Below, piece by piece: positions 2,162 to 40,569 of a DNA stretch of 48,779 bases. Source of the DNA: an uncultured Halobacteriales archaeon (GTDB lineage Archaea > Halobacteriota > Halobacteria > Halobacteriales > CAZPIG01). The position numbers and the translations under genes were made by a program. Positions within the stretch are counted from its first letter, which is position 1. Each line of letters begins with the position of its first letter. Under the pieces are notes generated by a model. That model was not told the origin of the DNA, made no database searches, and saw only the letters and a list, made by a program, of their open reading frames with translations. The stretch is taken from positions 10,658 to 59,436 of the forward strand of contig CAZPIG010000002.1 in NCBI GenBank assembly GCA_964586205.1, in the 5' to 3' direction.

Positions 2162-2206
2162 CTGTTCCAAGTTCGTTTTCGAAGTTGACTTCATTAAGTT
2201 ATCCCC

Positions 2207-11748: not shown

Positions 11749-12121
11749 GGGTCGTCACCGAAATACTAGTTTTCCGCTCGCAGTACCTTTTCCATGAGGA
11801 CTAGTTTTGCGGGGAGACAATAATGATTTCCCGGTTATTTACTCTAACGGAACAGACATCAATGGAACTTTGATACTATCCGGAGAGGCAGTAATCATTT
11901 AAGTATGACTAGCGACAATACAAGTAAATGAAGGGAGGGGCGCTTTGGTGTCCTAGCTGTTCTCGTTGGTTCAAACTGGTTCAGCTTTGCCCTCCCCGTT
12001 CTTGCGCAGCTAATCACGTTGAGCGTGCTGACCACCGTCGACCAGGCAGTAAAGTTTTCAAAACGACAACGGTGCTAATCAGTATCTTCACCGGGAACAA
12101 TCGGTTACCCCAGTAACAACA

Positions 12122-13213: not shown

Positions 13214-13327
13214 TCCAATCTTCCAACGTGAAGACTTTATCTGAATAGTAGGAGGCTAATATAGAAACACTGGCCTCCACGTAAACGACAGTCAGCGATC
13301 CTTCGAAACTACCATCGTGAGGTACCC

Positions 13328-13660
13328 TTGAACCGTGACCCTTATGGCCGTCATTCAAAACGGCGGCCAGAGGCGTCTGAACCTATATTAATATTTCAGA
13401 ATTCGTTAGAGTTCCAAATCGCAGCCAGGGGCGCACTATCTCTGATTGGTGGGTGCTTTGTCCTTTGCGCTGTTCTACTGTTTTTCGCTGGTTTCCATTT
13501 TGCAACACCCGTATCATATGCCGGCGTTGCGATTGGCCTGTTCGCGAACGCATTCCCTCGTCAACTGTCGGTTTCCGTCACTATTTTGTCGATGGTTAAA
13601 TTCGAATCTGATTTCAGAATATCTATTTCAATCGAGGTTAGTTTATCTTGTGACCAATAA
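13328..13660 (+). CDS. Possible small 2-TM membrane protein (TTG start; weak)
   Basis: Two hydrophobic stretches (ALSLIGGCFVLCAVLLFFAGF, VSYAGVAIGLFANAF). There is no ATG start, and it lies in AT-rich DNA where chance ORFs are rarer than in the GC-rich backbone. Confidence 0.25.
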   Translation: MNRDPYGRHSKRRPEASEPILIFQNSLEFQIAARGALSLIGGCFVLCAVLLFFAGFHFATPVSYAGVAIGLFANAFPRQLSVSVTILSMVKFESDFRISISIEVSLSCDQ

Positions 13661-13740
13661 TTTGGCAATGAATTCATTGACCACAGTATGGGACGACACA
13701 ATTTCCCAGCCAAATGAACGACATCCCGCCCGCCGTCCCG

Positions 13741-13752
13741 CCCCCCCCCCCC
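13741..13752. repeat. C12 homopolymer tract
   Basis: Direct reading: g at 13740, then twelve c, then gag. It sits at the boundary between the AT-rich island and the GC-rich backbone. Confidence 0.9.
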
Positions 13753-13930
13753 GAGTCTTCGGACAGACAGCGCCACGAGGATTCGTCTTCGGGAACAAGC
13801 AGCTCTTCCATAGCCCCCGATTGGTCCACAGCTCGCCGCGTGGGCCGTGGAGCGATTCGCCGACGACCGTCGGTAGCCCCGCCCAGTGGACCGACCGCCA
13901 ACCACCTCCACGGCCACCGACGCCCCCCAC

Positions 13931-27404: not shown

Positions 27405-28967
27405 CTACCGCCCGTCGTACACCACCTCGCCGTCCACCACCGTCAGCGCCACGTCGATGTCCTCGATGGCCCCGGAGTGCTCCCACGGCGACCGCTCTAA
27501 GGCCACCAGGTCGGCCTTCTTGCCCGCCTCGACCGTCCCGAGGCGGTCCTCGTCGAAGCCCGCGTAGGCCGCGCCGCGGGTGTACGCCCGCAACGCCTCC
27601 GTGACCGACAGCCGCTGGGACGGCTCGGGGGCGTTCACGGTCTGGTGGACGCCGAACAGCGGGTCGAGCGGCATGCAGTCGCTGCCGAACGCGAGGTGGA
27701 CGTCGGCCTCCAGGAGGTCGCGGAACCGATTGGTCCGCGCGCGGCGCTCGTCGCCCAGCCGCGCCGCGTAGAGGCCGCCCTCGCGGGCCCACTTCAGGAA
27801 GTTCGGCTGGACGGAGGCGACGACGCCGCTGTCGGCGAACTGCTCGACGTGGCCCGCGTCGAGTAGCTCGGCGTGCTCGACCCGGTGGCGGGCCGCGCCG
27901 GGGTCGTCCGTCCCCTCGACGAACGCGTCCAGCGTCTCCCCGACGGCCGCGTCGCCGATGGCGTGGACGGTGAGCTGGAAGCCCTCGCCGTCGGCGCGCT
28001 CGACGAGGTCGCGTAGCTCGTCGGGGGCCACCACCCACTGGCCGGTGCGGTGGTCAGAACCTTCGTCGGCATCCGCGTAGGGCTCGGTCAGCTTCGCCGT
28101 CCGACCGCCGAACGAGCCGTCGGTGAAGCTCTTGATGGCTCCCACCCGGACGAACTCGCTGCCGTGGTTCGTGGTCAGTCCCGTCTCGACCAGCGCGTCC
28201 ACGTGGTCGCTCCAGTAGTTCAGCCGGACGCGGAGGTCCAGCGCGCCCTCGCGGTCCAACTCGCGGTAGACGCGTGGTTTGTGCGACCGCCGGACCATGT
28301 CGTGGACGCCCGTGACGCCCAGCGCGTGGGCGCGGTCGCGCGCCGCGGTCAGGAGGTCGCGGGTCGCCGCGCGGTCGGGCGCGACCGCCGCGCGGACGAC
28401 GCCGACGGCGTCCTCCACGACGACGCCGGTCGGCTCGCCGCCCTCGCGGCGGACGTTCTCCGACGCCATCTCGCCGACCAGCCGGTCGAGTGCGACCGAG
28501 TTCAGGCTCGCGAGGTGGCCGTCCTCGCGGACGGCGGCGACGGGGCGGTCCTCGCTGACCGCGTCCAGGTCGTCGCTGGTGAGGTACCGCTGCTCGCCGC
28601 TCCAAGTGCTCTCGTCGTAGCCGTAGCCCAGTATCCAGTCGTCGGTCGAGGAGTCGTCGCTGTTTGTTGATTCTGCTAGCAACTCCACGCAGTCCTCGAC
28701 CCCGTCGGCGGGCCGGAGGTCGGCGTACACCTCGTACCGCCCGACGGCCTCCATGTGGGTGTGGGCGTCGGTGAAGCCCGGCAGGAGGACGCGACCATCG
28801 AGGTCGACGACGTCCGTCTCGACGCCTTCGAGGAACGCTATCTCGTATGCACTGTCCACGCTGACTATCTCGCCGTCGCGGACGGCGACGGCCTCGTGGG
28901 TCTCGTCCGGGTCGGCGAGGGTGTGTACCTCGGCGTTCGTGAAGATGCGGTCCGCGGCTTCGGTCAT
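27405..28967 (-). CDS. Amidohydrolase-family metal-dependent hydrolase (YtcJ-like)
   Basis: LLPGFTDAHTHME (HxH), HAIGD, EHAELL, FGSDCMP. Start MTEAADRIFTNAEVHT at 28967. Confidence 0.85.
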   Translation of the reverse strand: MTEAADRIFTNAEVHTLADPDETHEAVAVRDGEIVSVDSAYEIAFLEGVETDVVDLDGRVLLPGFTDAHTHMEAVGRYEVYADLRPADGVEDCVELLAESTNSDDSSTDDWILGYGYDESTWSGEQRYLTSDDLDAVSEDRPVAAVREDGHLASLNSVALDRLVGEMASENVRREGGEPTGVVVEDAVGVVRAAVAPDRAATRDLLTAARDRAHALGVTGVHDMVRRSHKPRVYRELDREGALDLRVRLNYWSDHVDALVETGLTTNHGSEFVRVGAIKSFTDGSFGGRTAKLTEPYADADEGSDHRTGQWVVAPDELRDLVERADGEGFQLTVHAIGDAAVGETLDAFVEGTDDPGAARHRVEHAELLDAGHVEQFADSGVVASVQPNFLKWAREGGLYAARLGDERRARTNRFRDLLEADVHLAFGSDCMPLDPLFGVHQTVNAPEPSQRLSVTEALRAYTRGAAYAGFDEDRLGTVEAGKKADLVALERSPWEHSGAIEDIDVALTVVDGEVVYDGR

Positions 28968-29335
28968 GGTTCGACGGGCGTGGGCAGCGAGGAAAACGGT
29001 TTGGGAAGGAATCATTTTAAAGTTTGTAGAGCATGAGCCTTATCTTCTAAATGGATTGCGAAAGGTAGTGAAATATGAAGGTGTGACGAGAAGTGACGCC
29101 TGACCAGTGGATTGCCGGCTAGATTTCCTAGAATAATTGTAACGTAAAGGGGTAAAAACGTTTCCCTGCGTCAAAATTCTCGTTTAAACATAGCTAAAAC
29201 ACGAATGTTCTTGGGAATTGGTGATATTTTGGCATTCCTAGGGTCCAGCTTGGTCCTACTGCGGGTTTCTCGAAAACTAGCAAAGGGAAACTGGTTCCAA
29301 TAAACTTATAAGCGATGGGGGGTAAAACTCCGATT

Positions 29336-29653
29336 GGCTACGACGCGGTGGGAAGCGCTTTTCTCACCGCACTTATAATATTACGGAGAGCCATCCTTTT
29401 AAGTCACGACTCTAGTTTAAGTAGGGTCATCGTCCTCTCGACCACTTTCACTCCGGTATCACTACATTAAAGGCCATTGAATTGGGGTGAGGTGAATCAA
29501 ATGTTCGAACTCGTAAAACGGGCGTTAATGATGTCCTACTCTGTTACAAACCCATTCCAGTGATTCTAATCCGGGCGGATAGAATCGAAAGGCTTTATTA
29601 CCTTTCGGCCGAACGACCTGCTGGGAGCGAGATTCTCCCACCGCGTCGTAGCC
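29336..29653. repeat. 18-bp perfect inverted repeat pair (ggctacgacgcggtggga 29336-29353 / tcccaccgcgtcgtagcc 29636-29653)
   Basis: Verified base by base; 282 bp separate the arms. The left arm also forms a local 10-bp hairpin (29345-29354 with 29361-29370, one G-U pair). Confidence 0.9.
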
Positions 29654-29885
29654 AGACGCCAACTGAGGCCGCGGAGGTTCCGCGGAACCAATATACGCCC
29701 TCGGGCGATGCTGGAGTTCACCCGGCATCGCGGGAGCAGGTCCTCCGTTGACCTGCATTTGCAAGGCAAGAACCCGCGATGTCGCCTGCCCAGCGACGAC
29801 TCTGAGGGTTGCCTTACCGGGGGCATCCGGCCTCGAAATATGACCGCGAGTAAACAAAGGACCACCCCCGCCAAGGGGGTATGAG
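29560..29885 (+). ncRNA. Candidate structured RNA or long structured 5' leader upstream of the ParB/Srx-like ORF (strand assumed from the downstream gene)
   Basis: There is no credible ORF here. Eight hairpins read by eye: 29562-68/29580-86; 29586-92/29601-07; nested 29607-09, 29613-17, 29623-27 with 29635-39, 29645-49, 29651-53; 29669-75/29679-85; 29705-14/29722-31; 29736-42/29750-56; 29763-69/29809-15 enclosing 29781-85/29793-97; and 29865-69/29875-79. Confidence 0.3.
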
Positions 29886-29888
29886 ACG

Positions 29889-30899
29889 ATGAGTTCGAAC
29901 AGCAACCAACCCCAGAATGGGTCTGGGGCACCAAGCCCGGGTCCGGATCCCACCGAGGAGATACCGGACACGATTCCGGCAATCGAGGAGCAACGGGTCC
30001 TGGTCGGCTTCATGGGTCCCGACGATGCTGTGGGGTGGCTCCAACAGTCCAAGCGGGTTCGGAACCCCATCGACCTCGCCGAGCGAGAGGAGATGGACGA
30101 AGCCGAAATCGAGCAGCACCAGGAAGCCATCCAGCAACAACTCCTCGACGAGTGGGAGGCTGCCCAGAAAGCCATCCCCGAGATCGAAGGAGTTGGGGCC
30201 GGCAGCTTCGGAGTGGAGGAACTCCCAAACGACCCGGCCGTTCAGAGCCACCTCGACGAGTACGCGGGGAAAGACGGCTTCCAGGAGGCGATGAGCGATG
30301 TCCCCGACATCGAGTGGAAGTTCAAGCGGGTCCCCATCGCGGCCCTCGTGGCGTTCCAGCCACAGGTCACTACGACCGCGTACGAGGACATTTCCACCTG
30401 GAGCGAGGACCCGGCGGCAGTCCTGGAGTACTGCTTCCCGACCGAACAGTCGACCCTCCAGATGACCGGGGTTAACGCTGACGATGACGGCAACCGCGCG
30501 CAAGCCTTCATCGTCAGCCGGTCGCCGAACTTCCAACTCGGTGGCGTCGGTATCGACTCCGGTGGGCCAACATCGGACATCCAGGTCCAGGTGAAACCGA
30601 AGCCGAACTTCCTTCAGGTGGTTCGCTTCCAAGACCGGTACATCCTGAAGAACGGCTATCACCGGACCTACCAGCTGATGCAGGCCGGCGAGGAGTTCGT
30701 CCCAGCAGTTGTCCACGAGGTGGACGACTACCAACTCACTGGGGCAGCCAAAGAGGGCGCCTTCCCGCCGGAAGTGGTGCTGGGCGACCGGCCCCCGATG
30801 ATGCCGGACTTCAACTCCGGCGCGGCCGTCACTCTGGAGACGCCAGCGACCAACACGGTCATTGAAGTGGTGGCGGACAAGAAGCAGATTCCCCGATAG
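29889..30899 (+). CDS. Orphan protein (336 aa) with a possible ParB/Srx-fold C-terminal region
   Basis: Clean ORF with intermediate GC. WKFKRVPIAALVAFQPQV and later PNFLQVVRFQDRYILKNGYHRTYQLMQAGEEFVPAVVHEV resemble the ParB/sulfiredoxin (DGQHR/GxxR-type) core. The N-terminus is disordered and is followed by an acidic coiled segment. Confidence 0.7.
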   Translation: MSSNSNQPQNGSGAPSPGPDPTEEIPDTIPAIEEQRVLVGFMGPDDAVGWLQQSKRVRNPIDLAEREEMDEAEIEQHQEAIQQQLLDEWEAAQKAIPEIEGVGAGSFGVEELPNDPAVQSHLDEYAGKDGFQEAMSDVPDIEWKFKRVPIAALVAFQPQVTTTAYEDISTWSEDPAAVLEYCFPTEQSTLQMTGVNADDDGNRAQAFIVSRSPNFQLGGVGIDSGGPTSDIQVQVKPKPNFLQVVRFQDRYILKNGYHRTYQLMQAGEEFVPAVVHEVDDYQLTGAAKEGAFPPEVVLGDRPPMMPDFNSGAAVTLETPATNTVIEVVADKKQIPR

Positions 30900-31023
30900 G
30901 GACCCTATTCGGGGATTTTTCGACTCGGAAAGCACTAGCTATTATTCGGACGTGGAGGGGGCTGTCGCTGGCTGGACTGCGCGTTGGCTCGCCACGATAG
31001 TCCTCGATAGCGAAGAGGCTGCC

Positions 31024-34000
31024 TCACGCCACCTCGGCAGCGACCTCCAGGCGCTCGACCATCCGCTCGGCGAGGTCGACCAGCTCGGAGCGCGTCACGT
31101 CGTTCAGCGCCGCGCCGTCGGTCGCCCGCAGCTCCGCGCCCGCGAACTCCGCGACCGCCCGCATCGCGTCTGCGGCCGTGCGGTACTCGCCGTCGGCCAT
31201 CAGCCCGGCGACGCGGTCGAGGCGCTCCCCGAATTCACGGCGGAGCGCCTCGCCAGCTCCCTCGTCCGCGCCATCCTCCGGGACCGCCCGCTCGTCCAGC
31301 CGCCCGACGGCGTCCCGGACGCTGGCGACGATGGGGTTCAGCTCGCTCTCCACGCCACCGACCGCGGTCCGGACCGAAACCACCGGCTGTGCGAAGGGGG
31401 CGACCACGTCCACGACGCCCGCGACGTCCGGCCCATCGCTCGCCTCGACGGTGGTGTCCACCCGCTCGCTGTGGCGGACCTCGCCGGCGGGGTCGAGGAA
31501 CGCGACGGTGGCGAGGTCGCCGCGCTCCCCATTCTCGCCGTCGCCCTCGTCTCCTTCACCGGCCTCCTCCGTCGTGGGGTAGCCCAGGTAGGCCGACACG
31601 GAGTCGAAGCTGACCCGGCCCTCCTCGTCCACCCGCCCCAGCGCCGACAGCACGTCCAGCGGGCCGCCGGACGTGCCGGGCGAGAAGCCGCCCTCGATGA
31701 CGTGCTGCTGGAGCCGCGAGTCGGTCCACGTATCGTCGTCGTCACCGGAGTAGCTCATGTAGCTGTCCTGGTCGTCGTGGCTCCACGGCGTCGCGATGGT
31801 GTCCACGTCGAAGTCGCCCGACCCGTCGAAGCCCCAGCCGTTCACCAGCGTGAACGTCCCGTCGGTGAGGTCGTAGCCCTTCGAGACGACGCCCGCGGCG
31901 TCGAAGTAACCGACGGTGTTGGTGTTGTTGGAGCTCGTGTGGCGCGCGTGGTCGTAATCGATGCCGGCAGGGCTGCCGGAGACCTCCGTCCCGTCGTCGT
32001 CGCGCTGGGCCATGGGGTGGTTCCAGCTCCCGGAGGTCGGTCCCTGGTAGGCGTCGTCCACGAGGTGGTGGCCTATCTCGTGGGCGGTCGTCCCCGCGAC
32101 CTCGACGAACGTGACGCCCGGGTCGCCGGCTTCGAGGACGGCCATGGCCTGGTTCTTCGTGTACTGCCGGCCGCGCAGACGCTGGTTCCCGGTGTGGTAG
32201 TTGAAGTAGTGCGTCGCCCCGGAATTGCTCGTGTCGTTGCCCGGCACGATGCAGACGACGGCGTCGAAGCCGTTGGACCGGAGGTCCCGGAACGCCGCCC
32301 GGTCGCTCGACTCGCTGTGCTCGACGACGTCCGCGGCACCGTTGGCGACCGTCTTGTGGCCGAGCAGCTGGTCCATCGCGTCCTTCGTGGCCTTCATGTC
32401 CCAGAACACCTGGTCGTTGTTGGTGGTCCGCGACCGCCCGGTGACGATCTCGCTGGCCCGGTAGGCCGTGACGTCCTTCCCCGGCAGGACCCGCTTCACG
32501 TACTGGACGGCCCGGTCCACGGTGGCCCGGAACTGCATCGGCTGACCGTTCGAGTCGCCGTACCGGCTCCCGTCGGCACGGTCCCACAGCTGGACGAACC
32601 CCACTCGGAACGTGGGGACGGTCGAGACGTCGAAGTCCCGGCCCTCCTCGAGGATGGCGACCTCGCCGGTCGAGCCGACGTTCCACCCGGCGCTGAGTTC
32701 GACCTTCTGTAAGCTGTCGTCCACTTCGAACACCGTCGGGTCGTTGCCCGTCCCGGAGTCGTGGGCGTTGTTGTGGAGGATGCCCAGCATCGGGACGCCG
32801 GCGTCGATGGCCTTCGCGTCCGCCTTCGATATCGTGTACGTGTCGGTGTGGCGACCGCTGCCGTCCGTCCACGTTATCTCGACGGTCGTCTGACTCGGGA
32901 ACAGGTCGACGTGGTCGACGGTGGCGTCGAAGGCGACCGTGGCGTAGTCGCCGGCCACGATGGCCGGGTCGTCGACGGTGTAGGTGCTGGACCCGCCGAC
33001 GACGCGGGTCTTCTCGACGGTCTGGACGAGCCTGACGTCCGAGAGCTGGATGTCCGGCTGGGGCCCGGTCGAGCCGCCGCCGGGGATTATCTCCATACAC
33101 TCGTCTAGCTCGGGGACGCCACCGTTGCGCGGGCAGACCGTCACCGTCTCGAGAGCCCCGACGAGGCGCTCGTGGAGGCGGTCGAGGTCGCGCTCGGTGA
33201 GCGTGCAGTCGGGGTTCAGACAGCCGAGGCGCTCCTGGATGGACTCGGTGACGGTGGGGCGCTCCTCGACGCCGCCCACGACGACGGTGTCGGAACCCCG
33301 GCCGGCCAACAGGCCGCCGGTGTCGGTCCCGTCCTCGGCCCGCTCGGATTCGTTCGCTGCGTCCGCGTCGATGCCTTCGGCCCCTTCGCGCGTCCCGCGC
33401 GCGAGGTGCAAGAGGACCTGCGAGCCGCCCTCGCCCTCGCCGTCGGCCCCGCTCGCACCCGCGGTGCGGCCGTAGTAGCTGACCACCTCGACCTCCGAGC
33501 CGAACAGCGTGGCGGTCGTCTCGCCCACCCGCTCGGGCGCGCGGTCCCACTCGGGGACGTCCCCGACGACGTCGGCCTGCCGGAGCAGCCGCCGGCCCGT
33601 CTCGCCGGCGACGAGGTCGTCGAGCGGCCTCGTCGCGAGCGGATTGCGGGCCGCGCCGGCGATGTTCGCCGACGGCGTCGCGAGCACGCCGACCGACAGC
33701 GTCCCGGGGACGTCCTCCTCGTAGGTGGCCGGGAGGTCGCCGCCGAGGTCCACGTCGGACCGGTAGGTCACGAGGTGGCTGGTCGTCGAGAACTCGGTCT
33801 GCGCGCCGCCGACGCCGACGGTGCGCGAGCGCTCGATGCGCTCGTGGCTGGCCGTCGAGAGTCCGAGCCGGTTCGTGCCGGCCTCTCCGAGGCCGGCGGG
33901 CAGGGCCGCGAACTCGCGGTTCGTCACCTCCTGGCAGCCCGCGAGGCCGGTCGCCACCGCTCCCGCGCCGAGGTGGGCCAGAAAGCGCCTGCGATTCCAC

Positions 34001-34029
34001 GCGCCGTCAGCGTCGTCGCGTCCTGTCAT
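31024..34029 (-). CDS. Large Tat-lipoprotein with HExxH zinc-metalloprotease motif (about 1001 aa)
   Basis: Start MTGRDDADGAWNRRRFLAHLGAGAVATGLAGC at 34029 (RR motif plus lipobox). VEVAGTTAHEIGHHLVDDAYQG lies in the C-terminal half. Confidence 0.8.
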   Translation of the reverse strand: MTGRDDADGAWNRRRFLAHLGAGAVATGLAGCQEVTNREFAALPAGLGEAGTNRLGLSTASHERIERSRTVGVGGAQTEFSTTSHLVTYRSDVDLGGDLPATYEEDVPGTLSVGVLATPSANIAGAARNPLATRPLDDLVAGETGRRLLRQADVVGDVPEWDRAPERVGETTATLFGSEVEVVSYYGRTAGASGADGEGEGGSQVLLHLARGTREGAEGIDADAANESERAEDGTDTGGLLAGRGSDTVVVGGVEERPTVTESIQERLGCLNPDCTLTERDLDRLHERLVGALETVTVCPRNGGVPELDECMEIIPGGGSTGPQPDIQLSDVRLVQTVEKTRVVGGSSTYTVDDPAIVAGDYATVAFDATVDHVDLFPSQTTVEITWTDGSGRHTDTYTISKADAKAIDAGVPMLGILHNNAHDSGTGNDPTVFEVDDSLQKVELSAGWNVGSTGEVAILEEGRDFDVSTVPTFRVGFVQLWDRADGSRYGDSNGQPMQFRATVDRAVQYVKRVLPGKDVTAYRASEIVTGRSRTTNNDQVFWDMKATKDAMDQLLGHKTVANGAADVVEHSESSDRAAFRDLRSNGFDAVVCIVPGNDTSNSGATHYFNYHTGNQRLRGRQYTKNQAMAVLEAGDPGVTFVEVAGTTAHEIGHHLVDDAYQGPTSGSWNHPMAQRDDDGTEVSGSPAGIDYDHARHTSSNNTNTVGYFDAAGVVSKGYDLTDGTFTLVNGWGFDGSGDFDVDTIATPWSHDDQDSYMSYSGDDDDTWTDSRLQQHVIEGGFSPGTSGGPLDVLSALGRVDEEGRVSFDSVSAYLGYPTTEEAGEGDEGDGENGERGDLATVAFLDPAGEVRHSERVDTTVEASDGPDVAGVVDVVAPFAQPVVSVRTAVGGVESELNPIVASVRDAVGRLDERAVPEDGADEGAGEALRREFGERLDRVAGLMADGEYRTAADAMRAVAEFAGAELRATDGAALNDVTRSELVDLAERMVERLEVAAEVA

Positions 34030-34164
34030 CGGCCTTCTAACGACACGGTGTCTGACACCGTCTCCAATCAGTGGATACGCTAGGTAGTTAGACTCAGTCG
34101 GACTGGACATCCACTGGGGACCCTGACGGGGCCGTCGTGGGTCAGCCGGGACGCCAGCGTCCCT

Positions 34165-35700
34165 TCACCCGCCCTTCGACAGCCGCGCCCGCTCGAAGAA
34201 CAGGTCCACGCCCTCGTCGCCGAACTCGAAGCGGACCTCCCGCTCGAAGCCGCTGGCCATCGTCGTCGTGCAGACCAGCAGATCGTCGCCCACGGACTCC
34301 GGCGACAGCAGCAGCTCCTGGCCGCCCAGCCCGCTCTGCTGCTCTAAGCGCAGCATCCCGCCGACGCGCTCGACGGTCGCGCCGCCGATGCCGCGGTAGG
34401 AGCCGTACTCGCCGGTGGCGCGCTCCAGCGCCGCGACGAGGCGGTAGTGCGGCACGGCGTCCTCGGGGTCCGCGCCGGAGAGCAGCGCCAGCACCGCCGG
34501 CCCGACGGCCATCGGGTGGGCCTCGGGGCTCGTCGTGCACGCGACGGCCACGCCGAGGCCGCTCTCTTCGAGGTAGCCGAACCACGCGTTCGAGACGGCG
34601 ATGGAGCCGCCGTGGCCGACCAGCCGGTCCCCGAGGAACGCCTCGACCATCAGCCCGTAGCCGTAGCCCACCTCGGTGCCGTCGAGGTAGGTCCCGAAGG
34701 CCCCGTCGGGCGTCGTCATCTGGGCGACGCGCTCGGCGGGGAGGACGCGCGTGCCGTCGCCGCCCGCTCCGTCGTCGCTACCACCGGCGGCTCCGCCATC
34801 GCTGCTGCCGTCACCGTTACCGTCGCTCGCTCCCCCGTCCCCGCCGCCGCTTCCGCCGTCACTGCCCCCGACAACCCCGCCGCCGGCCAGCGTCCGGACC
34901 CACGTGGCCATCTCGGAGACGGGGGCCACGAGCCCGCCCGGCGCGTGAATCAAGGGGTCGAACGGGAACCCCGACGGCGTGGACTCGTCGTCGTCCTTGA
35001 CGTACGGCGTGATGCGGTCCTCGCACGCCTCGAACTCCGCCTTCGAGAACGTCGCCCGCTCCATCCCGAGCGGGTCCAGTAGTTCGGCCTCGACGTAGTC
35101 CGCGAAGGACTCGCCGGTCACCGCCTCGACGAGCAGCCCGAGCATGGTGTACCCGGAGTTGTAGTAGAAGAACGTCTCGCGGTCGGTGACCCGGCGGTCG
35201 AGCGAGCCCTCGACGTGCCGCCGGAAGTCGTCGGGGCTGGACATCGGCACCTCGATGTGCCCGAGTCCGAGCGGGCGCGTGATGAGCGGCCCGGCGGAGC
35301 CGTCCCCGGGCAGCCCGGAGGTGTGGGCGAGCAGCTCGTGGACGGTCACCGGCTCGCCCGGCGCGTCCTCGAGGTGCGGGAGGTAGTCGTTCACCGGGTC
35401 GTCGAGGGCGACCTCGCCCGCGGCCGCTAGCTGGAGGACGGCCGCGGCGGTGAACGACTTGGTGCACGAGCCGACGCCGAACAGCGTGTCGGGGGTGACG
35501 GGGGCGTTGTCCTCCAAGTCGCGCGCGCCGAAGCCCTCCGCGTAGGCGATGGGGTCGTCGGATTCGTCTCCGCCGGTGTCGTCCGCGTTCCCGCCGCTGC
35601 CGTCCACGATGGCCAGCGCCGCGCCGGGGATGCGGTGGTCGCTCAGCCAATCGGTGACGAAAGACTCGACTTCTCTTCGCGTTTGGTCGTCGAGTGTCAT
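34165..35700 (-). CDS. Beta-lactamase-family serine hydrolase
   Basis: Start MTLDDQTRREVESF at 35700. S-x-x-K (GSCTKSF), YYNSGY, VGHGGS. Contains a G/S/D-rich low-complexity insertion. Confidence 0.85.
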   Translation of the reverse strand: MTLDDQTRREVESFVTDWLSDHRIPGAALAIVDGSGGNADDTGGDESDDPIAYAEGFGARDLEDNAPVTPDTLFGVGSCTKSFTAAAVLQLAAAGEVALDDPVNDYLPHLEDAPGEPVTVHELLAHTSGLPGDGSAGPLITRPLGLGHIEVPMSSPDDFRRHVEGSLDRRVTDRETFFYYNSGYTMLGLLVEAVTGESFADYVEAELLDPLGMERATFSKAEFEACEDRITPYVKDDDESTPSGFPFDPLIHAPGGLVAPVSEMATWVRTLAGGGVVGGSDGGSGGGDGGASDGNGDGSSDGGAAGGSDDGAGGDGTRVLPAERVAQMTTPDGAFGTYLDGTEVGYGYGLMVEAFLGDRLVGHGGSIAVSNAWFGYLEESGLGVAVACTTSPEAHPMAVGPAVLALLSGADPEDAVPHYRLVAALERATGEYGSYRGIGGATVERVGGMLRLEQQSGLGGQELLLSPESVGDDLLVCTTTMASGFEREVRFEFGDEGVDLFFERARLSKGG

Positions 35701-35745
35701 GGGGGTAGGTGGACGGGTGGGGGCATAAAGTGGTAGACTCCCCCA

Positions 35746-36259
35746 CCACGAAGAGCAACCCTTACGCACGACGGGCCCAACCCCCCGCTCATGACCGACG
35801 ACACCGGGACCCCCGACGCAGTTCCCGACGGCGGCGCGGACCCCCAAGCCCTCGCCGACCGCGTCAGCGAGGGAGACCTCCGCCTGTACGAGCTAGAGGA
35901 CCACGCCGACGCCGAGACGGCGGCGACCGCCCGGCGACTGTTCGTCGAGCGCGAGACCGACACCGACCTCGGCGCGGTCGGGGAGTACGCCTTCTCCGCC
36001 GAGCGGGCGAACACGAACGTCGAGAACCTCGTCGGCGGCGCACAGCTACCGATGGGCGTTGCCGGCCCAGTCGCCGTCGCCGGCGAGTCCGCCGACGGGG
36101 AGTTCCACCTCCCCATCGCGACCACGGAGGGGGCGCTGGTGGCCTCGGTCAACCGCGGCTGCTCGGCCATCACCGCCGCGGGCGGGGCCAACGCCCGCGT
36201 CACGAAGCGCGGGATGACCCGCGCGCCGCTGTTCGCGGTGGCGGACGTCACCGAGGCCG
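35746..36259 (+). repeat. hmgA promoter and 5' end, duplicate copy A
   Basis: 35938-36259 matches 39463-39784 (constant offset of 3525) with one mismatch found (35973 c versus 39498 g). 35746-35937 is clearly homologous to copy B but diverged, and is 72 bp shorter. Confidence 0.95.
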
Positions 36260-36306
36260 GCGCGCATCTCCGATTAGCACTTACGCCGTCGAGGACTCAA
36301 GTCTAG
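35791..36306 (+). pseudogene. hmgA: Truncated HMG-CoA reductase N-terminal fragment (about 156 homologous aa plus an unrelated tail)
   Basis: The ORF is identical to the full hmgA from ...ETAATARRLFVERETD... through FAVADVTEA. It then diverges into low-GC island sequence (GAHLRLALTPSRTQV). Confidence 0.9.
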
Positions 36307-36412
36307 CGAGAATCCTCACGAGAAAAGACCTCGAACGGGGTCTTCGAGGCTCAACGTGGTTGGGTTTTAGCGAGGGCCAGTCAGGCATCCGGAAAACGAA
36401 ATAGGGGAGAGG

Positions 36413-36967
36413 CTAGATTTTCCCGACTTCGAGGGTGTTCATGACCGCGTCCCGGTGATCGGGGTTCGTCGAGTAGAGGGTCCCCTTGTACTCGATGAAC
36501 TGGTTGTCGACGAGGGCCTCGGGGTACCTGCGAGTCATCAAGCAACCAGTTCCCTTACCTAGGTTACTTTTGAATGCCCGTCTGGCTTGCTCGCCGAGGG
36601 CTGTGTACTCGACAGTGGATTGCGGTTCGGCCTTGGCTGCGGTGGCTCGTTGGATGTCCCCACCGTACTTCGAGACGAAGCGACCGTGGAGGCGCAGATC
36701 GTGCGTCGTATTGCCCTTCTTGACGTAGTCGTTTGTGAGGAGTTGACGGGGGGACGACCCCGGCCGGCCCAGATTCAGTGCTCCCTGGTTCAGCGCGGCC
36801 GCGAACGCTGCTCTGGCCTCCCTCGTCAAGTCACGATACGGGATGGTGTTGGCAACCGTGGGATGGCCGTCCTCGGCTACTGCTGGTGGGATGGTGGTGA
36901 GGGCGCCGAGCCCCGCGATTCCTTTGAGAGCCTTCCTCCGCGTCGGATTCGACGAATTTCGTTTCAT
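36413..36967 (-). CDS. Tat-signal secreted protein with an internal two-fold repeat (184 aa)
   Basis: MKRNSSNPTRRKALKGIAGLGALTT (RR motif). Repeats TIPYRDLTREARAAFAAALNQG...TNDYVKKGNTTHDL and TVEYTALGEQARRAFKSNLGKG...DNQFIEYKGTLYST. Low-GC island. Confidence 0.7.
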   Translation of the reverse strand: MKRNSSNPTRRKALKGIAGLGALTTIPPAVAEDGHPTVANTIPYRDLTREARAAFAAALNQGALNLGRPGSSPRQLLTNDYVKKGNTTHDLRLHGRFVSKYGGDIQRATAAKAEPQSTVEYTALGEQARRAFKSNLGKGTGCLMTRRYPEALVDNQFIEYKGTLYSTNPDHRDAVMNTLEVGKI

Positions 36968-36985
36968 TGTTTTCGATTTTCGACT

Positions 36986-37636
36986 TCAACTCGTGAACTC
37001 GTTTCCCATGCAATCGCTGTAGTATCGGTCCTTGTCTCCACAGTAGCAGGCCAGTGTGTCGGTCCCGCAGTCGTTGGTCTCGCCCTTGAGTCCCCCGTAG
37101 CTCACGACGATGGGTGTCCAGCACTCGATCCCATTCGGGGAAGTCGTGTCTGCCCCGTGATGGATGCTGGATGTGTGGCGCCCCCCGAAATTGTGCCCAA
37201 TCTCCATCAGCGCCCCGCAGAGGTAGAAATGGGTCGAATTTTGTCCCGTCGAGAATCGGGGGACACCGCTGATGCCATTCACATTGTCGAAGGCTTTCCC
37301 GCCTTCGATCATGGCCGCATCGCCGCCGATCTCGGCACAACCATCACCGTTGATGTCGTCGTTGCGACCGCGGCGAGTTATTAGAAGGTTGCTCTCCGAC
37401 TTCTTCAATATATTACTATTGTTGACACGTTGCTTCCAGTTGCTCCACGGGCTACCGTCACAGTCCCCATCTTGCCCCCCGACATCGTACGACTTATCGA
37501 CGACGGTAACATTCGAGGTAATTGATTGGTGTTGTAACGCATCCTTCAGCCCATCCTTCACCAGTTGGGCCGCGTGGAGGCCGTTGGCGCCGTATTCCTT
37601 GTCCGTTACGTACAAGCTCACGTTGATGTCTGCCAT
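36986..37636 (-). CDS. Signal-less Cys-rich metzincin/reprolysin-like protein with a Met in place of the first zinc His (MEIGHNFGGRH)
   Basis: 216 aa. CGALMEIGHNFGGRH matches HExxHxxGxxH at every position except the first. 9 Cys. No signal peptide. Low-GC island, 18 nt upstream of the Tat-signal gene. Confidence 0.7.
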   Translation of the reverse strand: MADINVSLYVTDKEYGANGLHAAQLVKDGLKDALQHQSITSNVTVVDKSYDVGGQDGDCDGSPWSNWKQRVNNSNILKKSESNLLITRRGRNDDINGDGCAEIGGDAAMIEGGKAFDNVNGISGVPRFSTGQNSTHFYLCGALMEIGHNFGGRHTSSIHHGADTTSPNGIECWTPIVVSYGGLKGETNDCGTDTLACYCGDKDRYYSDCMGNEFTS

Positions 37637-37941
37637 GTTTCAATTTCCTGTCGCCCGTCCAATCGGGCGTAAAGGAACAGTATCGGTATAATATTAAATC
37701 ATTTCACTAACGCATTAGATATTCAGTTTGAAATTCACTAATTTTAGTAATCGAAAAATGTTCGCCCTCGGACCACGTACCTGCAGTTGATGTATCCGGC
37801 AGACGGCCTCCAACCAGGGTGAGGTGCGTCTCTCAAGTTGGGGCTTCGAACGCTACGTCAAGATACTTCCGTCCGAATTTTGCTAAGAACGAATAGATCA
37901 CCCGCGAGTCTGGCTATCTGCGCGGTCACGCTGGAATAGTT

Positions 37942-38196
37942 CTACAGACGGTGCAGGAGGTATCCGGAGATCAGAACGAACCCGAGGCCAATGACGAGCG
38001 GTGCAACGACGAAGAGCGGATGCCAGAGGAAGATCGAACACCCAAAACAGTGCTGTTTCGTCCGCAACAGTGCAGCGGCTCGAAAGTGGACGTAGCTTCC
38101 CGCACCCGTAAGTGCTATCCCAGTCAAGAAGAGCACTCCTGCCAGTGTCTTCCTCCGTCCCCTGTCGATATCCAATAGCATTTTCGACATTGTCAC
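37942..38196 (-). CDS. Small membrane protein (84 aa, 2-3 TM)
   Basis: LAGVLFLTGIALTGAGSYV, CFGCSIFLWHPLFVVAPLVIGLGFVLISGYLL. Low-GC island. Confidence 0.45.
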   Translation of the reverse strand: MTMSKMLLDIDRGRRKTLAGVLFLTGIALTGAGSYVHFRAAALLRTKQHCFGCSIFLWHPLFVVAPLVIGLGFVLISGYLLHRL

Positions 38197-38269
38197 AGTG
38201 AATTAAAGAAAAGCGATGCTTAAGTACCTTGGGGGGCAAACGGCAGCGTTCAGATAAGGACGGAAGGAT

Positions 38270-38985
38270 GAGGCGGTTGTAGTTTCGTGTTCAGATGTCC
38301 GAAACCCACCGCCTCACCCAATCTCTCGACTGGATCGAGTTAGACTTTCTGGAGCGTGAGGCCACGCCGCCACCGTTGATGGAACTCGGCACCCAGCTGC
38401 ATCTTGCCGACCTCTCGCTTTCGAAGACCATTTCGATTCTGGAGATACACGGCATCGACCGGTGCCGTTCGACGGTCCACAACGGGTCCAGAAGGCCGAC
38501 GTCGAGCCGCAATCCGGGCACACTCCCGACAAGATCGCCATCGGCGAAACGGTCATCCATATCGACGACGAGCGCCACTGGCTGTTCGCCGCTATCGATC
38601 CCGCGACCAACCGATTCCTTCACGTCAGGCTCTTTCCTACCCGAACGCTGGTGTTGAGCGAGCACTTCATCAGCCAGCTCAAGGCGAAACACGCCGTCGA
38701 AGACGGGTTGTTTCTCGTTGGTGGCGCGCCGTGGCTCCAGAGCGCGCTGTTCCGCCACAGCCTCAAGTTTCGCCACGAGACCAACGGCGACCGAAACTCG
38801 GTCGAACGTGTCTTCAAAGAGGTCAAACGCCGCATCGACCGATTTGCAAACCATTTCAGACACGCCTCAGTGGAGTCCGCCGAGAACTGGCTGCGAGCGT
38901 TCGCGACCGCATGGAGTCACCTTATCAGAATAATGATAATAAACAGCTGTTTGATTGCAACGTCGAGGTAAGTCGGCGGCCATCG
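38270..38985 (+). mobile_element. IS6-family insertion sequence remnant (ends not resolved)
   Basis: Contains the frameshifted transposase below. Only weak terminal similarity (ggttgtagtt... versus ...gattgcaacg), so the boundaries are approximate. Confidence 0.5.
38295..38971 (+). pseudogene. IS6-family DDE transposase with a single-nt frameshift
   Basis: The N-terminal HTH part is in the frame of ORF 38295.. (MSETHRLTQSLDWIELDFLEREATPPPLMELGTQLHLADLSLSKTISILEIHGIDRCRSTVHN). The catalytic part is in the frame of ORF 38462.. (VQKADVEPQSGHTPDKIAIGETVIHIDDERHWLFAAIDPATNRFLHVRLF...NSVERVFKEVKRR). The frames join at 38483/38484, where a W codon (tgg) appears to have lost its t. Confidence 0.8.
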
Positions 38986-39198
38986 TCGACCGATTGTCGG
39001 TCCGGGACCGGACCTCACGTGGGGAGAACGTGGCGCCTTCGTGACCGAAAGAAGCGAGCGAACGGGGTCCCCGAAAGGTTCGCTTCACTCGTGTTCAAGT
39101 ACGCGGGCGGTCGAACCGACCCGCGGTTTCCGGGCACGATGCTCCAGTCCAACCGGCTTCAGATACGTCATATCGGCGTTACGAGAACGACGTCTCTG

Positions 39199-39784
39199 CC
39201 ACGAAGAGCAACCCTTAGGCGGCCAGGGCGCAACCCCCCGCCCATGACCGACAACGCCGCGGACGGGGACGGGGCCCCCGACGGCGACGCGACCCCGGAA
39301 ACCGACGCGACCCCGGACGCCGACGCGGCTCCGGACCACGACGCGGTCTCGGACGGCGGCGCGGACGCCGACGCCCTCGCGGACCGCGTCCAAGAGGGAG
39401 ACCTCCGCCCCTACGAGCTCGAGGACCACGCCGACGCCGAAACCGCGGCCACGGCCCGCCGGCTGTTCGTCGAGCGCGAGACCGACACCGACCTCGGGGC
39501 GGTCGGGGAGTACGCCTTCTCCGCCGAGCGGGCGAACACGAACGTCGAGAACCTCGTCGGCGGCGCACAGCTACCGATGGGCGTTGCCGGCCCAGTCGCC
39601 GTCGCCGGCGAGTCCGCCGACGGGGAGTTCCACCTCCCCATCGCGACCACGGAGGGGGCGCTGGTGGCCTCGGTCAACCGCGGCTGCTCGGCCATCACCG
39701 CCGCGGGCGGGGCCAACGCCCGCGTCACGAAGCGCGGGATGACCCGCGCGCCGCTGTTCGCGGTGGCGGACGTCACCGAGGCCG
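39199..39784 (+). repeat. hmgA promoter and 5' end, duplicate copy B (part of the intact gene)
   Basis: See copy A. The conserved upstream box ccacgaagagcaaccctta lies at 39199-39217 and at 35746-35764. Confidence 0.95.
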
Positions 39785-40569
39785 CCGCCGTCGCCGAGTG
39801 GGTCGAGGACAACTTCGGGGACCTGAAAGCCGCCGCCGAGTCCACCACCAGTCACGGGGAGCTGACGGCCGTGGACCCCTACGTCGTCGGCAACAACGTC
39901 TACCTCCGGTGCGTCTACGACACGAAGGACGCGATGGGGATGAACATGGCCACCATCGCCACGCCCGAGATAACCGCGCTCGTCGAGGAGCACACGCCCG
40001 CCTCGCTGGTGGCGACCTCGGGCAATCTCTGCACGGACAAGAAGCCCGCCGCCATCAACGCCGTCGAGGGACGGGGGCGGTCGGTCGTCGCCGACGTGAC
40101 CATCCCTCGCGAGGTCGTCGAGGACCGCTTCAACACCACGCCGGAGAACGTCGCGGAGGTCAACGAGCGCAAGAACCTCGTCGGGTCGGCGAAGGCCGGG
40201 AGCCTCGGCTTCAACGCCCAGGCCGCGAACGTCGTGGCGGGCGTGTTCCTCGCGACCGGACAGGACGAGGCCCACGTCGTGGAGGGCTCGAACGCCATCA
40301 CCACGGCGGAGGTGCAGGACGGAGACCTCTACGCCTCGGTGAGTCTCGCCAGCCTCCAGGTGGGCACGGTCGGCGGCGGGACGACGCTTGCGACCCAGTC
40401 CGCGGCGCTGGAGCTGCTCGGCGTGGCCGGCGGCGGCGACCCGCCGGGAACGAACGCGGACGCCTTCGCCGAAGTGGTCGCCGCGGGCGCGCTGGCCGGG
40501 GAGTTGTCGCTGCTGTCTGCGCTGGCGTCGCGGCACCTCGCGAGCGCGCACGAGCAGTTGGGGCGGTAG
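39244..40569 (+). CDS. hmgA: HMG-CoA reductase (class I, soluble archaeal type)
   Basis: Start MTDNAADGDG at 39244 inside ORF 38404..40569. ENLVGGAQLPMGVAGP, TTEGALVAS, DAMGMNM, GNLCTDKKPAAINAVEGRG, TVGGGT. Confidence 0.92.
   Translation: MTDNAADGDGAPDGDATPETDATPDADAAPDHDAVSDGGADADALADRVQEGDLRPYELEDHADAETAATARRLFVERETDTDLGAVGEYAFSAERANTNVENLVGGAQLPMGVAGPVAVAGESADGEFHLPIATTEGALVASVNRGCSAITAAGGANARVTKRGMTRAPLFAVADVTEAAAVAEWVEDNFGDLKAAAESTTSHGELTAVDPYVVGNNVYLRCVYDTKDAMGMNMATIATPEITALVEEHTPASLVATSGNLCTDKKPAAINAVEGRGRSVVADVTIPREVVEDRFNTTPENVAEVNERKNLVGSAKAGSLGFNAQAANVVAGVFLATGQDEAHVVEGSNAITTAEVQDGDLYASVSLASLQVGTVGGGTTLATQSAALELLGVAGGGDPPGTNADAFAEVVAAGALAGELSLLSALASRHLASAHEQLGR

What the first reader, a model, noticed from the sequence alone, without database searches (positions are those of the whole stretch)
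35746..39784. Mosaic direct duplication of the hmgA promoter and 5' end brackets a 2.9-kb low-GC island: Campbell-type integration footprint in an essential isoprenoid gene
Seen in sequence: 35938-36259 equals 39463-39784, which is 322 bp at a constant offset of 3525 with one synonymous mismatch (35973/39498). Just upstream, the two copies are homologous but clearly diverged, with many synonymous changes and a 72-bp (24-codon) longer acidic N-terminal extension in copy B. Both retain the box ccacgaagagcaaccctta ending about 27 nt before the ATG. Copy A is truncated exactly where the low-GC DNA begins (36260). Copy B continues into a full-length HMG-CoA reductase. The intervening DNA carries a Tat-secreted protein, a Cys-rich metzincin-like protein, a small membrane protein and an IS6 remnant. 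Inference: a circular element carrying a foreign, 3'-truncated hmgA fragment recombined by a single crossover within the identical block. That would leave the native promoter driving a dead fragment, while the working gene now uses a foreign promoter and N-terminus. Established knowledge: in haloarchaea, the hmgA expression level determines statin (mevinolin) sensitivity, so a promoter swap could have a phenotype.
Basis: partly seen in the sequence, partly recalled or inferred. Interest (0 to 1): 0.7.

Follow-up and report, generated by a model that had tools for sequence, protein, structure and literature searches.

The report
Small circular element integrated into hmgA
A 3.5-kb DNA element with no integrase carries its own copy of the promoter and start of the essential lipid-synthesis gene hmgA; it appears to have recombined into the host's hmgA, leaving the native start as a dead stub and the working gene on an imported promoter and N-terminus.

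Summary
Positions 35746-36259 and 39199-39784 are direct repeats of the hmgA promoter and 5' end. They differ at 21 of 127 positions up to 35937, then at 1 of 322, and they bracket a low-GC insert.

- A 98.9%-identical strain (SRR9010616) has the empty site. There, bla, promoter A and the A-type N-terminus run uninterrupted into the hmgA body.
- A contig from SRR26668030 closes on itself as a 3,529-bp cycle that equals the unit between the repeats.
- The island, the IS and the copy-B promoter and 5' end are 99.8-99.9% conserved across seven runs, while the adjoining hmgA block varies in patches.

So copy A is native and the 5' end of copy B came with the element.

Four points need amending.
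- The near-identity of the 322-bp block is most likely secondary homogenisation, not the original state.
- The 19-nt "box" is the general haloarchaeal hmgA core promoter and is identical in both copies.
- The IS is a full-length but dead ISH29-like element.
- The integrated order itself rests on the source assembly's resolution of the repeat.

This is a new variant of Campbell-type integration, and the interest is moderately high.

The parts
27405..28967 (-). Amidohydrolase gene, the ancestral upstream neighbour of hmgA
   Evidence: Homologues lie upstream of hmgA, adjacent or within about 4 kb, in Halosimplex (L002, L003), Halobacterium sp. KA-4 (L006), L063 and L081. Pfam Amidohydro_3 is recorded on the L081 homologue. 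The 520-aa product is in the collection.
34165..35700 (-). Pab87-like beta-lactamase-family gene, divergent from native hmgA; its TATA-like CTTTATG lies at 35724-35730
   Evidence: Pfam Beta-lactamase plus Pab87_oct. The same adjacency to promoter A is seen in the empty-site strain L095.
35746..35764 (+). Native hmgA core promoter (box A), ending 26 nt before the ATG
   Evidence: Exact 19-mer, two copies in the window and 0 expected. The motif AGCAACCCTTAGG (3 or fewer mismatches) is found upstream of hmgA in 47 of 82 loci, with 25-26 nt spacing in 43 of them.
35791..36306 (+). Truncated hmgA' (copy A), a 171-aa ORF: 156 hmgA codons plus 15 island-derived codons
   Evidence: Pfam HMG-CoA_red profile positions 2-111 of 368 only. 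Its 5' part (35791-35937) matches the empty-site strain at all 21 sites where copies A and B differ.
35938..36259 (+). Repeat block, copy A (322 bp, one difference from copy B at 35973)
   Evidence: C at 35973 is the allele also seen in L085, L091 and L095.
36260..36412 (.). Left end of the element: the illegitimate junction of hmgA codon 156 to the 3' flank of the DUF7979 gene
   Evidence: The junction GAGGCCG|GCGCGCATC is identical in the seven Logan contigs from seven runs.
36413..36967 (-). Tat-signal protein of 184 aa (DUF7979, weak hit)
   Evidence: The RRKAL motif is visible in the translation. PF25934 is recorded as weak on the Logan copies. It is paired with the Cys-rich gene in other haloarchaea.
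36986..37636 (-). Cys-rich 216-aa protein with an invariant MExxHxxGxxH motif; function unknown
   Evidence: Five homologues at 50-100% identity and alignment A4. Only sub-threshold Reprolysin hits. The structure model has low confidence.
37942..38196 (-). Small hydrophobic ORF (82-84 aa)
   Evidence: ORF list; called as an 82-aa gene on six of the seven Logan contigs; no family hit.
38242..38937 (+). Full-length but inactive ISH29-like IS6 element
   Evidence: 65-69% DNA identity to IS6/ISH29 copies on 68 haloarchaeal plasmids. The left inverted repeat is GGCAGCGTTCAGATAAGG and the right one is degenerate. A 1-nt deletion frameshifts the transposase and the catalytic DETV is changed to GETV. 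NCBIfam transpos_IS6 is hit in two frames. No 8-bp target duplication was found, and this is the only copy in the window.
38938..39198 (.). Element-borne spacer upstream of promoter B
   Evidence: No differences from the window in six Logan contigs. No homologue in 84 hmgA loci apart from the box. No Rfam hit.
39199..39217 (+). Element-borne hmgA core promoter (box B), identical to box A
39244..39462 (+). Element-borne 5' coding part of the working hmgA, including an 18-bp tandem repeat (39256-39364)
   Evidence: 83% identical to copy A. Physically continuous with the island in all Logan contigs that reach it. TRF result.
39463..39784 (+). Repeat block, copy B
39244..40569 (+). Full-length HMG-CoA reductase gene (441 aa), a chimera of an element 5' end and the host body
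   Evidence: Pfam PF00368 positions 2-368 of 368, E=1.4e-125. The closest proteins in the databases are 83% and 81% identical.

Best explanation
A roughly 3.5-kb circularisable element has integrated into the chromosomal hmgA by host homologous recombination (Campbell type). The element consists of a DUF7979 Tat protein gene, a Cys-rich protein gene, a small membrane ORF, a dead ISH29-like IS6, a 260-bp spacer, and a foreign hmgA promoter with the first 180 codons. It has no integrase and no recognisable replication gene.

The product is: bla, native promoter A, native N-terminus, block, element, promoter B, foreign N-terminus, block, host hmgA body. The native promoter now drives a 171-aa dead fragment. 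The essential enzyme is transcribed from the element's promoter and carries the element's N-terminal 73 residues.

The crossover most likely lay in the 35-nt identical stretch 35938-35972. Copy A's element-type block was then overwritten from copy B by gene conversion or further exchange. The converted tract is bounded on one side by the poorly homologous 5' part and on the other by the end of homology at 36259. It left only the allele at 35973.

Shown: the repeats, the breakpoint, the empty site, the closed cycle, the linkage of the copy-B 5' end to the island, and mosaic alleles in both directions.

Inferred: the order of events, the crossover position, that the cycle is a free circle rather than a tandem array, and any effect on expression.
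For: - Repeat anatomy and sharp breakpoint.
- Empty site in a 98.93%-identical strain, with the A-type promoter and N-terminus continuous with the hmgA body.
- Closed 3,529-bp cycle (window unit of 3525 plus a 4-bp indel) with the same 36259/60 junction.
- Element DNA at 36260-39462 differs by only 2-5 SNPs plus one indel among seven runs, while the adjoining block differs at 16 of 322 sites in two patches (36033-36147 and 36231-36240). Between the patches lie identical runs of 83-87 nt; only 16-30 of 5000 permutations give runs that long.
- Recombinant junctions exist in both directions. Host-type alleles at 36231-36240 sit next to the island in SRR9010614 (L086). The empty-site gene carries a contiguous tract (35973-36147) with the same alleles as the island-adjacent copies.
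- The copy-A 5' end and the window's block resemble the closest relatives of the gene body (L001, L081) more than the copy-B 5' end and the alternative block do: 0.78/0.77 against 0.72/0.74, and 11 against 5 of 18 variable sites.
- No recombinase or rep family was found in the element.
- Efficient gene conversion in polyploid haloarchaea is documented (PMC8223754, PMC11276520).
Against: - The integrated order is seen only in the source contig, a 59,436-bp NCBI record. Across a 286-322-bp exact repeat, a short-read graph is the same for 'integrated' and for 'empty site plus free circle', and no read-level check was possible.
- A cycle in a de Bruijn graph can also come from a tandem array.
- The element has no evident way to replicate as a circle.
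- Which block alleles are 'host' and which are 'element' rests on weak phylogenetic affinity at 18 sites. The alternative assignment (element carrying the window-type alleles at 36033-36147) also fits, given one extra excision step.
- The ends of contigs L086 and L087 differ by 5 nt in a way I cannot fully explain.
Confidence: 0.72

Rival explanations
1. Assembly path artefact. The sampled population contains the empty-site chromosome (A-type 5' end, block, body) and a separate circle (B-type 5' end, block, island). The assembler threaded them into one contig through the shared block.
For: - Both forms exist in public runs (L095; L085).
- The runs look strain-heterogeneous: contigs break at SNPs, and L096 stops inside bla.
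- The block is an exact repeat of 286 nt beyond the SNP, longer than typical reads.
Against: - Even then the circle's block would have to be identical to the host's, so element-chromosome recombination is still required.
- Host-type alleles sit directly next to the island in L086.
- Contigs L087-L090 stop exactly 30 nt into an element-type block end, implying that this 30-mer continues into a second sequence as well as the island.
- The C/G difference at 35973/39498 is phased with the two 5' ends in the source contig.
Confidence: 0.17
2. One-step homology-facilitated illegitimate insertion of a linear donor fragment. One homologous crossover occurs at about 35938-35972 and one illegitimate join at 36259/60, between sister genome copies. 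The 322-bp block would then be a duplication of resident DNA and identical from the start.
For: It explains the identical block and the sharp breakpoint in a single event. There is possible microhomology just after 36259 (10 of 15 nt).
Against: - The same 36259/60 junction is found attached to a different, element-type block in six other runs and within a closed cycle. The junction therefore predates this integration and belongs to the element.
Confidence: 0.05
3. IS6-mediated movement: a cointegrate or translocatable-unit insertion catalysed by the IS6 transposase.
For: The unit has the form of a translocatable unit, with one IS6-family copy plus passenger DNA in a circle (PMC4196232).
Against: - The transposase is frameshifted and its catalytic D is replaced by G. 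The same truncated 169-aa ORF is called on six of the seven contigs.
- There is a single IS copy, with no flanking second copy and no 8-bp target duplication.
- The flanking repeats are hmgA, not IS.
Confidence: 0.03
4. Ancient tandem partial duplication of hmgA with concerted evolution of the 3' part.
For: Direct repeats with a homogenised segment.
Against: - A 98.9%-identical strain has a single uninterrupted copy.
- The 5' parts are as diverged from each other (83%) as the gene is from other genera.
- None of 82 other haloarchaeal hmgA loci shows the arrangement.
Confidence: 0.02

Closest known systems
Laboratory 'pop-in/pop-out' suicide-vector integration in haloarchaea (single-crossover Campbell integration, e.g. 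pTA131-type vectors; hmgA used as a statin-resistance marker)
   Same: Circular DNA with no replication in the host integrates by one homologous crossover, giving direct repeats of the homology arm around the insert. It can pop out at a different point and leave exchanged alleles (PMC5052560 describes single versus double recombination and the hmgA marker).
   Different: This case is natural rather than engineered. The homology arm is a 3'-truncated 5' fragment of an essential gene with its own promoter, so integration keeps the gene intact while replacing its promoter and N-terminus.
SXT/R391 integrative conjugative elements in prfC (and phage 21/e14 in icd)
   Same: The element inserts in the end of a conserved chromosomal gene and supplies a replacement for the displaced gene end. 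[quoted passage not shown] That it brings a new promoter and N-terminus, and the phage 21/e14-icd case, are from my own recollection of Hochhut & Waldor 1999 and earlier work.
   Different: Those elements use a tyrosine integrase and a short att core. Here no recombinase is encoded, and the exchange region is hundreds of bp of diverged homology with mosaic outcomes.
IS26/IS6-family translocatable units
   Same: A small circle containing a single IS6-family copy plus passenger genes and lacking replication functions. It can also (re)integrate by RecA-type homologous recombination and can be tandemly amplified (PMC4196232, PMC4676283, PMC11102541).
   Different: The IS here is dead, integration is not next to another IS copy, and the flanking repeats are a host-gene fragment. 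Such units are described for bacteria; I know of no archaeal example (own knowledge).
hmgA up-promoter or amplification mutants conferring mevinolin/statin resistance in Haloferax and Haloarcula
   Same: Changes at the hmgA 5' region set HmgA level and statin sensitivity (PMC5052560, citing Lam & Doolittle 1992 and Wendoloski et al. 2001).
   Different: Here the 19-nt core promoter is unchanged. Only the 26-nt spacer, the upstream DNA and the N-terminus differ, the duplicated fragment is non-functional, and no phenotype is known.

Membership tests
Campbell-type (homologous, single-crossover) integration of a circular DNA | Direct repeats of the homology segment flank the inserted DNA | tested here: met
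   35746-36259 and 39199-39784 flank 36260-39198.
Campbell-type (homologous, single-crossover) integration of a circular DNA | A related genome shows the unoccupied site with one copy of the segment | tested here: met
   L095 (SRR9010616), 98.93% identical flank, with hmgA uninterrupted.
Campbell-type (homologous, single-crossover) integration of a circular DNA | A circular form exists, equal to the insert plus one repeat | tested here: inconclusive
   L085 closes on itself (30-nt k-1 overlap, 3,529 bp). A graph cycle could also be a tandem array, and no read-level test was possible.
Campbell-type (homologous, single-crossover) integration of a circular DNA | The two repeats are reciprocal host/element chimeras | tested here: inconclusive
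   Copy B has an element 5' end joined to host body, and copy A has a host 5' end. The blocks, however, are homogenised in this genome; unconverted element-type blocks are seen only in other runs.
Campbell-type (homologous, single-crossover) integration of a circular DNA | The integrated order is physically continuous in one molecule | not testable with these tools
   It rests on the 59,436-bp NCBI contig. The Logan contigs break at the repeat.
Site-specific integrative element (tyrosine or serine recombinase, att core) | Encodes an integrase | tested here: not met
   No recombinase family in any element ORF with Pfam, NCBIfam or PHROGs.
Site-specific integrative element (tyrosine or serine recombinase, att core) | A short identical core at both junctions, with divergence outside it | tested here: not met
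   Homology spans 514/586 bp. The crossover and conversion points differ between samples.
IS6/IS26 translocatable unit | Intact DDE transposase | tested here: not met
   Frameshift plus a D-to-G change in DETV.
IS6/IS26 translocatable unit | The insert is bounded by two direct IS copies, or has an 8-bp target duplication | tested here: not met
   Single IS copy in 48.8 kb. The flanks GGGCAAAC and AATAAACA do not match.
Class I HMG-CoA reductase (PF00368) | Full-length catalytic domain | tested here: met
   Copy B covers 2-368 of 368, E=1.4e-125. Copy A covers only 2-111 of 368 and is therefore not a functional member.
ISH29-like IS6 insertion sequence | A roughly 700-bp element with terminal inverted repeats and an IS6 transposase gene | tested here: met
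   38242-38937. The left inverted repeat is conserved and the right one is degenerate. DNA identity to annotated IS6/ISH29 copies is 65-69%.

The most novel reading that the evidence does not exclude
A natural 'pop-in/pop-out' element may exist in Archaea. It would be a 3.5-kb circle with no integrase and no replication gene. It would persist in a haloarchaeal population by reversible homologous integration into the essential hmgA gene, using a captured, promoter-bearing 5' fragment of that gene as its attachment arm.

Each visit would swap the promoter and N-terminus of HMG-CoA reductase and leave mosaic scars even in 'empty' alleles. The element would then act both as a mobile unit and as a driver of allelic exchange, and possibly of expression or statin-sensitivity variation, at an essential locus.
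Probability: 0.3. Interest if true: 0.78.

Novelty: new variant of a known kind. Interest (0 to 1): 0.62.

Why it matters
Mobile DNA in archaea is usually described as integrase-driven, IS-driven or plasmid-borne. Here a small element seems to move in and out of an essential gene using only host recombination. Its 'attachment site' is a captured gene fragment that keeps the target functional.

If confirmed, this would be a natural counterpart of the suicide vectors used in haloarchaeal genetics, and an archaeal analogue of bacterial translocatable units.

It would also show how foreign promoters and N-termini, and patches of foreign sequence, can enter an essential, conserved gene without loss of function.

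Because HmgA level sets statin sensitivity in haloarchaea, the locus offers a directly testable phenotype.

Tried and rejected
- Exact-protein look-ups of HmgA copy B, copy A, SufS and bla found nothing.
- No close relative exists in the species-representative genomes or the 5.8-billion-protein set. The best HmgA is 83% identical, and a body-only query gave 87%.
- bla and sufS are not near hmgA in any of 84 loci, so synteny could not decide which copy is native. Only the amidohydrolase linkage is conserved.
- The island has no match among phages. Among plasmids only the IS matches.
- Junction and promoter-A patterns gave no hits in JGI metagenome contigs or IMG/VR.
- The run accessions were not found in the literature library.
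- There is no Rfam family in 35500-39900.
- The structure model of the Cys-rich protein was poor (pLDDT 49). Foldseek gave nothing below E=0.07, so 'metzincin' is unproven.
- Homologues of the Cys-rich/DUF7979 gene pair sit in contexts without hmgA, so there is no family of hmgA-targeting islands.
- P0214/L097 turned out to be an unrelated context.
- My own earlier idea, a one-step homology-facilitated illegitimate insertion that duplicates resident DNA, was dropped once the same junction was found on a cycle and next to element-type blocks.

Full report
OBSERVATION

The two copies are real. Copy A spans 35746-36259 and copy B spans 39199-39784.

From 35811 onward they align at a constant offset of 3525. 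There are 21 differences in the 127 nt up to 35937, and one in the following 322 nt, at 35973/39498, a synonymous GGC/GGG change.

The change in divergence is abrupt. Fisher's test gives p=1.4e-11, the maximum chi-square breakpoint falls after 35937, and 0 of 2000 permutations reach the observed value.

In the conserved YELEDHADAETAATARR stretch, 7 of 15 codons differ and all changes are synonymous. The two 5' parts therefore diverged as working genes in separate lineages. Their identity (83%) is about the same as that between this gene and hmgA of other genera.

The 72 extra bases in copy B are four units of an 18-bp tandem repeat.

Copy A is a 171-aa ORF that covers only the first 111 of 368 profile positions of HMG-CoA reductase. 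Copy B is full length.

Between the copies, GC drops from 0.70-0.75 to 0.46-0.60.

WHAT THE PARTS ARE

The 19-nt 'box' is not special to this duplication. A motif AGCAACCCTTAGG (3 or fewer mismatches) lies upstream of hmgA in 47 of 82 haloarchaeal loci, against a background of 0.01 per 340 nt. In 43 of those loci its TTA sits 25-26 nt before the ATG. It is therefore the general hmgA core promoter of a leaderless gene, and both copies carry it unchanged. Upstream of box A lies the back-to-back promoter of a Pab87-like beta-lactamase-family gene.

The insert encodes the following:
- a Tat-signal protein (DUF7979, weak hit);
- a Cys-rich 216-aa protein;
- a small hydrophobic ORF;
- an ISH29-like IS6 element (38242-38937).

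The IS is full length but dead. It has a 1-nt frameshift, its catalytic DETV has become GETV, its right inverted repeat is degenerate, there is no target duplication, and there is no second copy in the window.

No integrase or replication protein was detected.

The 'metzincin-like' label for the Cys-rich protein rests on sub-threshold Reprolysin hits and an invariant MExxHxxGxxH motif. It stays unproven.

RELATED SEQUENCES

The organism has no close relative in the genome or protein collections. The best HmgA match is 83% identical.

The only conserved synteny is an amidohydrolase (27405-28967) upstream of hmgA in Halosimplex, Halobacterium and the nearest metagenome-assembled genomes. The locus is therefore in its ancestral neighbourhood.

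The breakthrough came from the Cys-rich protein. Exact copies of it sit on seven short contigs assembled from public runs.
- L086 (SRR9010614) is 100% identical to window 36230-39497.
- The other six contigs (SRR26668030-35) differ from the window in 36260-39462 by only 2-5 SNPs and a 4-bp indel.
- In those six, the hmgA block next to the island differs from the window's block at 16 of 322 sites. The differences fall in two patches (36033-36147 and 36231-36240), separated by identical runs of 83-87 nt.
- All contigs share the same junction at 36259/60.

The copy-B promoter and N-terminus are physically continuous with the island everywhere, so they belong to the element.

CIRCLE AND EMPTY SITE

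L085 (SRR26668030) has an exact 30-nt overlap of its two ends, which is k-1 for these assemblies. It closes into a 3,529-bp cycle that runs: copy-B 5' end, block, junction, island, IS, spacer, promoter B. This is exactly the unit between the window's repeats (3525 bp plus the 4-bp indel).

Through a 90%-cluster relative of the beta-lactamase I reached L095 (SRR9010616). It is 98.93% identical to window 31024-36273. After bla, promoter A, the A-type N-terminus and the block, it continues into the hmgA body (...GTCACCGAGGCCG|CCGCCGTCGCCGAC...) instead of the island.

L095 matches copy A at all 21 sites where the 5' ends of A and B differ. It shows that copy A is native and it rules out an old tandem duplication.

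HOW IT MOST LIKELY HAPPENED

A circular element carrying a foreign, 3'-truncated hmgA fragment recombined with the chromosomal hmgA by host homologous recombination.

A plain single crossover between the element as seen in L085 and the host gene would leave element-type alleles in one of the two blocks. In this genome both blocks are the same, so a second step is needed.

The allele table fits the following sequence of events:
- The crossover fell in the 35-nt identical run 35938-35972.
- Copy B received the host block, with G at 39498.
- Copy A received the element block, with C at 35973, the allele seen in L085 and L091 and also in the empty-site gene L095.
- Copy A's sites 36033-36240 were then converted from copy B.

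The poorly homologous 5' part and the end of homology at 36259 bound the converted tract. That explains the sharp edges of the identical block.

This assignment of 'host' and 'element' alleles is supported only weakly. The copy-A 5' end and the window's block match the nearest relatives of the gene body better than the copy-B 5' end and the alternative block do.

Under this reading, the empty-site gene of L095 carries a contiguous element-type tract (35973-36147). That would be a scar of an earlier visit or of a conversion event.

Recombinants exist in both directions whichever assignment is right. Host-type alleles sit next to the island in L086, and an element-type block end continues into a second sequence in L087-L090.

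Efficient gene conversion in polyploid haloarchaea is established (PMC8223754, PMC11276520).

CAVEATS

The integrated order is seen only in the source contig, a 59,436-bp NCBI record. With short reads and a 286-322-bp exact repeat, 'integrated' and 'empty site plus free circle' give the same assembly graph. The runs look strain-heterogeneous.

The cycle could also be a tandem array.

I put about 0.72 on real integration and 0.17 on the path artefact. In either case the element and the chromosome have demonstrably exchanged sequence.

COMPARISON WITH KNOWN SYSTEMS

- The mechanism is that of Campbell integration and of laboratory pop-in/pop-out vectors in haloarchaea (PMC5052560).
- Functionally it resembles SXT/R391 elements, which insert in the 5' end of prfC (PMC2791158). 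It differs in having no integrase and no att core.
- In form it resembles an IS26-type translocatable unit (PMC4196232, PMC11102541). It differs in that the IS is dead and the flanking repeats are a host-gene fragment.

It fails the defining tests for a site-specific element and for an IS6 translocatable unit. It meets most tests for homologous integration.

CONSEQUENCES

The working gene is read from the element's promoter and has a foreign N-terminal 73 residues that are 24 residues longer than the native ones.

The 19-nt core promoter is identical in the two copies. Only the 26-nt spacer (18 of 26 identical) and the upstream DNA change. A large effect on HmgA level, and hence on statin sensitivity, is possible but not implied.

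VERDICT

This is a new variant of a known kind, and the interest is moderately high.

Noticed in passing
35746-35764 and 39199-39217; L002-L080 about 45 nt upstream of each hmgA ATG: There is a conserved haloarchaeal hmgA core-promoter motif (GAAnnAGCAACySTTAGG) whose TTA lies 25-26 nt before a leaderless ATGAC start. It is found in 47 of 82 loci from many genera, against a background of 0.01 per 340 nt. The closest relatives (L001, L081) use the variant CGAAGCGGGTTAGG. The conservation extends beyond a TATA box, which may point to a regulator site.
   Followed up: partly
36986-37636 (-) with 36413-36967 (-); L092 5895-7160, L093, L094: The Cys-rich 216-aa protein and the DUF7979 Tat protein form a conserved adjacent gene pair in other haloarchaea, in contexts without hmgA. 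All five homologues keep MExxHxxGxxH, a metzincin-like motif with Met in place of the first His, together with several invariant Cys. No family or structural match was found.
   Followed up: partly
L095 (SRR9010616), positions equivalent to window 35973-36147: The uninterrupted 'empty-site' hmgA of the sister strain carries a contiguous tract whose alleles match the island-adjacent copies of other runs rather than this genome. This may be a scar of an earlier integration and excision, or of gene conversion.
   Followed up: partly
29016-31000: A second low-GC island (GC 0.51-0.62) begins within about 50 bp of the amidohydrolase start. It has roughly 870 bp of AT-rich non-coding DNA and a 336-aa ORF with no family hit. 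Together with the 1001-aa DUF6517 Tat protein and bla, it separates hmgA from its ancestral neighbour by 6.8 kb.
   Followed up: no
2001-3000 and 12001-14000: There are further low-GC stretches (0.59 and 0.49-0.52) in a 0.70-0.75 GC background. The ORFs 2207-2908 and 12122-13213 have no significant Pfam hit. The window seems rich in foreign inserts.
   Followed up: no
854-2194: Three tandem paralogous units of about 440 bp are present (909-1161 against 1343-1595 at 78%; 1169-1228 against 2066-2125 at 97%; 41-nt and 49-nt motifs repeated at 434-457 bp spacing). This looks like a small tandem gene family.
   Followed up: no
39256-39364: The N-terminal extension of the working HmgA is an 18-bp (6-codon) acidic tandem repeat, with 6.1 copies at 76% matches. 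The native N-terminus lacks four units. N-terminal length varies widely among haloarchaeal HmgA proteins (394-454 aa among the near-full-length hits).
   Followed up: partly
38462-38971: The IS6 transposase has two inactivating changes, a frameshift and a DETV-to-GETV change. The same truncated 169-aa ORF is called on six of the seven contigs, so the IS was already dead in the common ancestor of these element variants.
   Followed up: yes
L086 and L087 ends (window 39497 and 39492): The contig from SRR9010614 runs 5 nt further into the shared 35-nt stretch than the SRR26668032 contig, and stops just before the C/G site at 39498. This fits the SNP being real in the reads. It may also mean that two B-type variants coexist in that run.
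   Followed up: no
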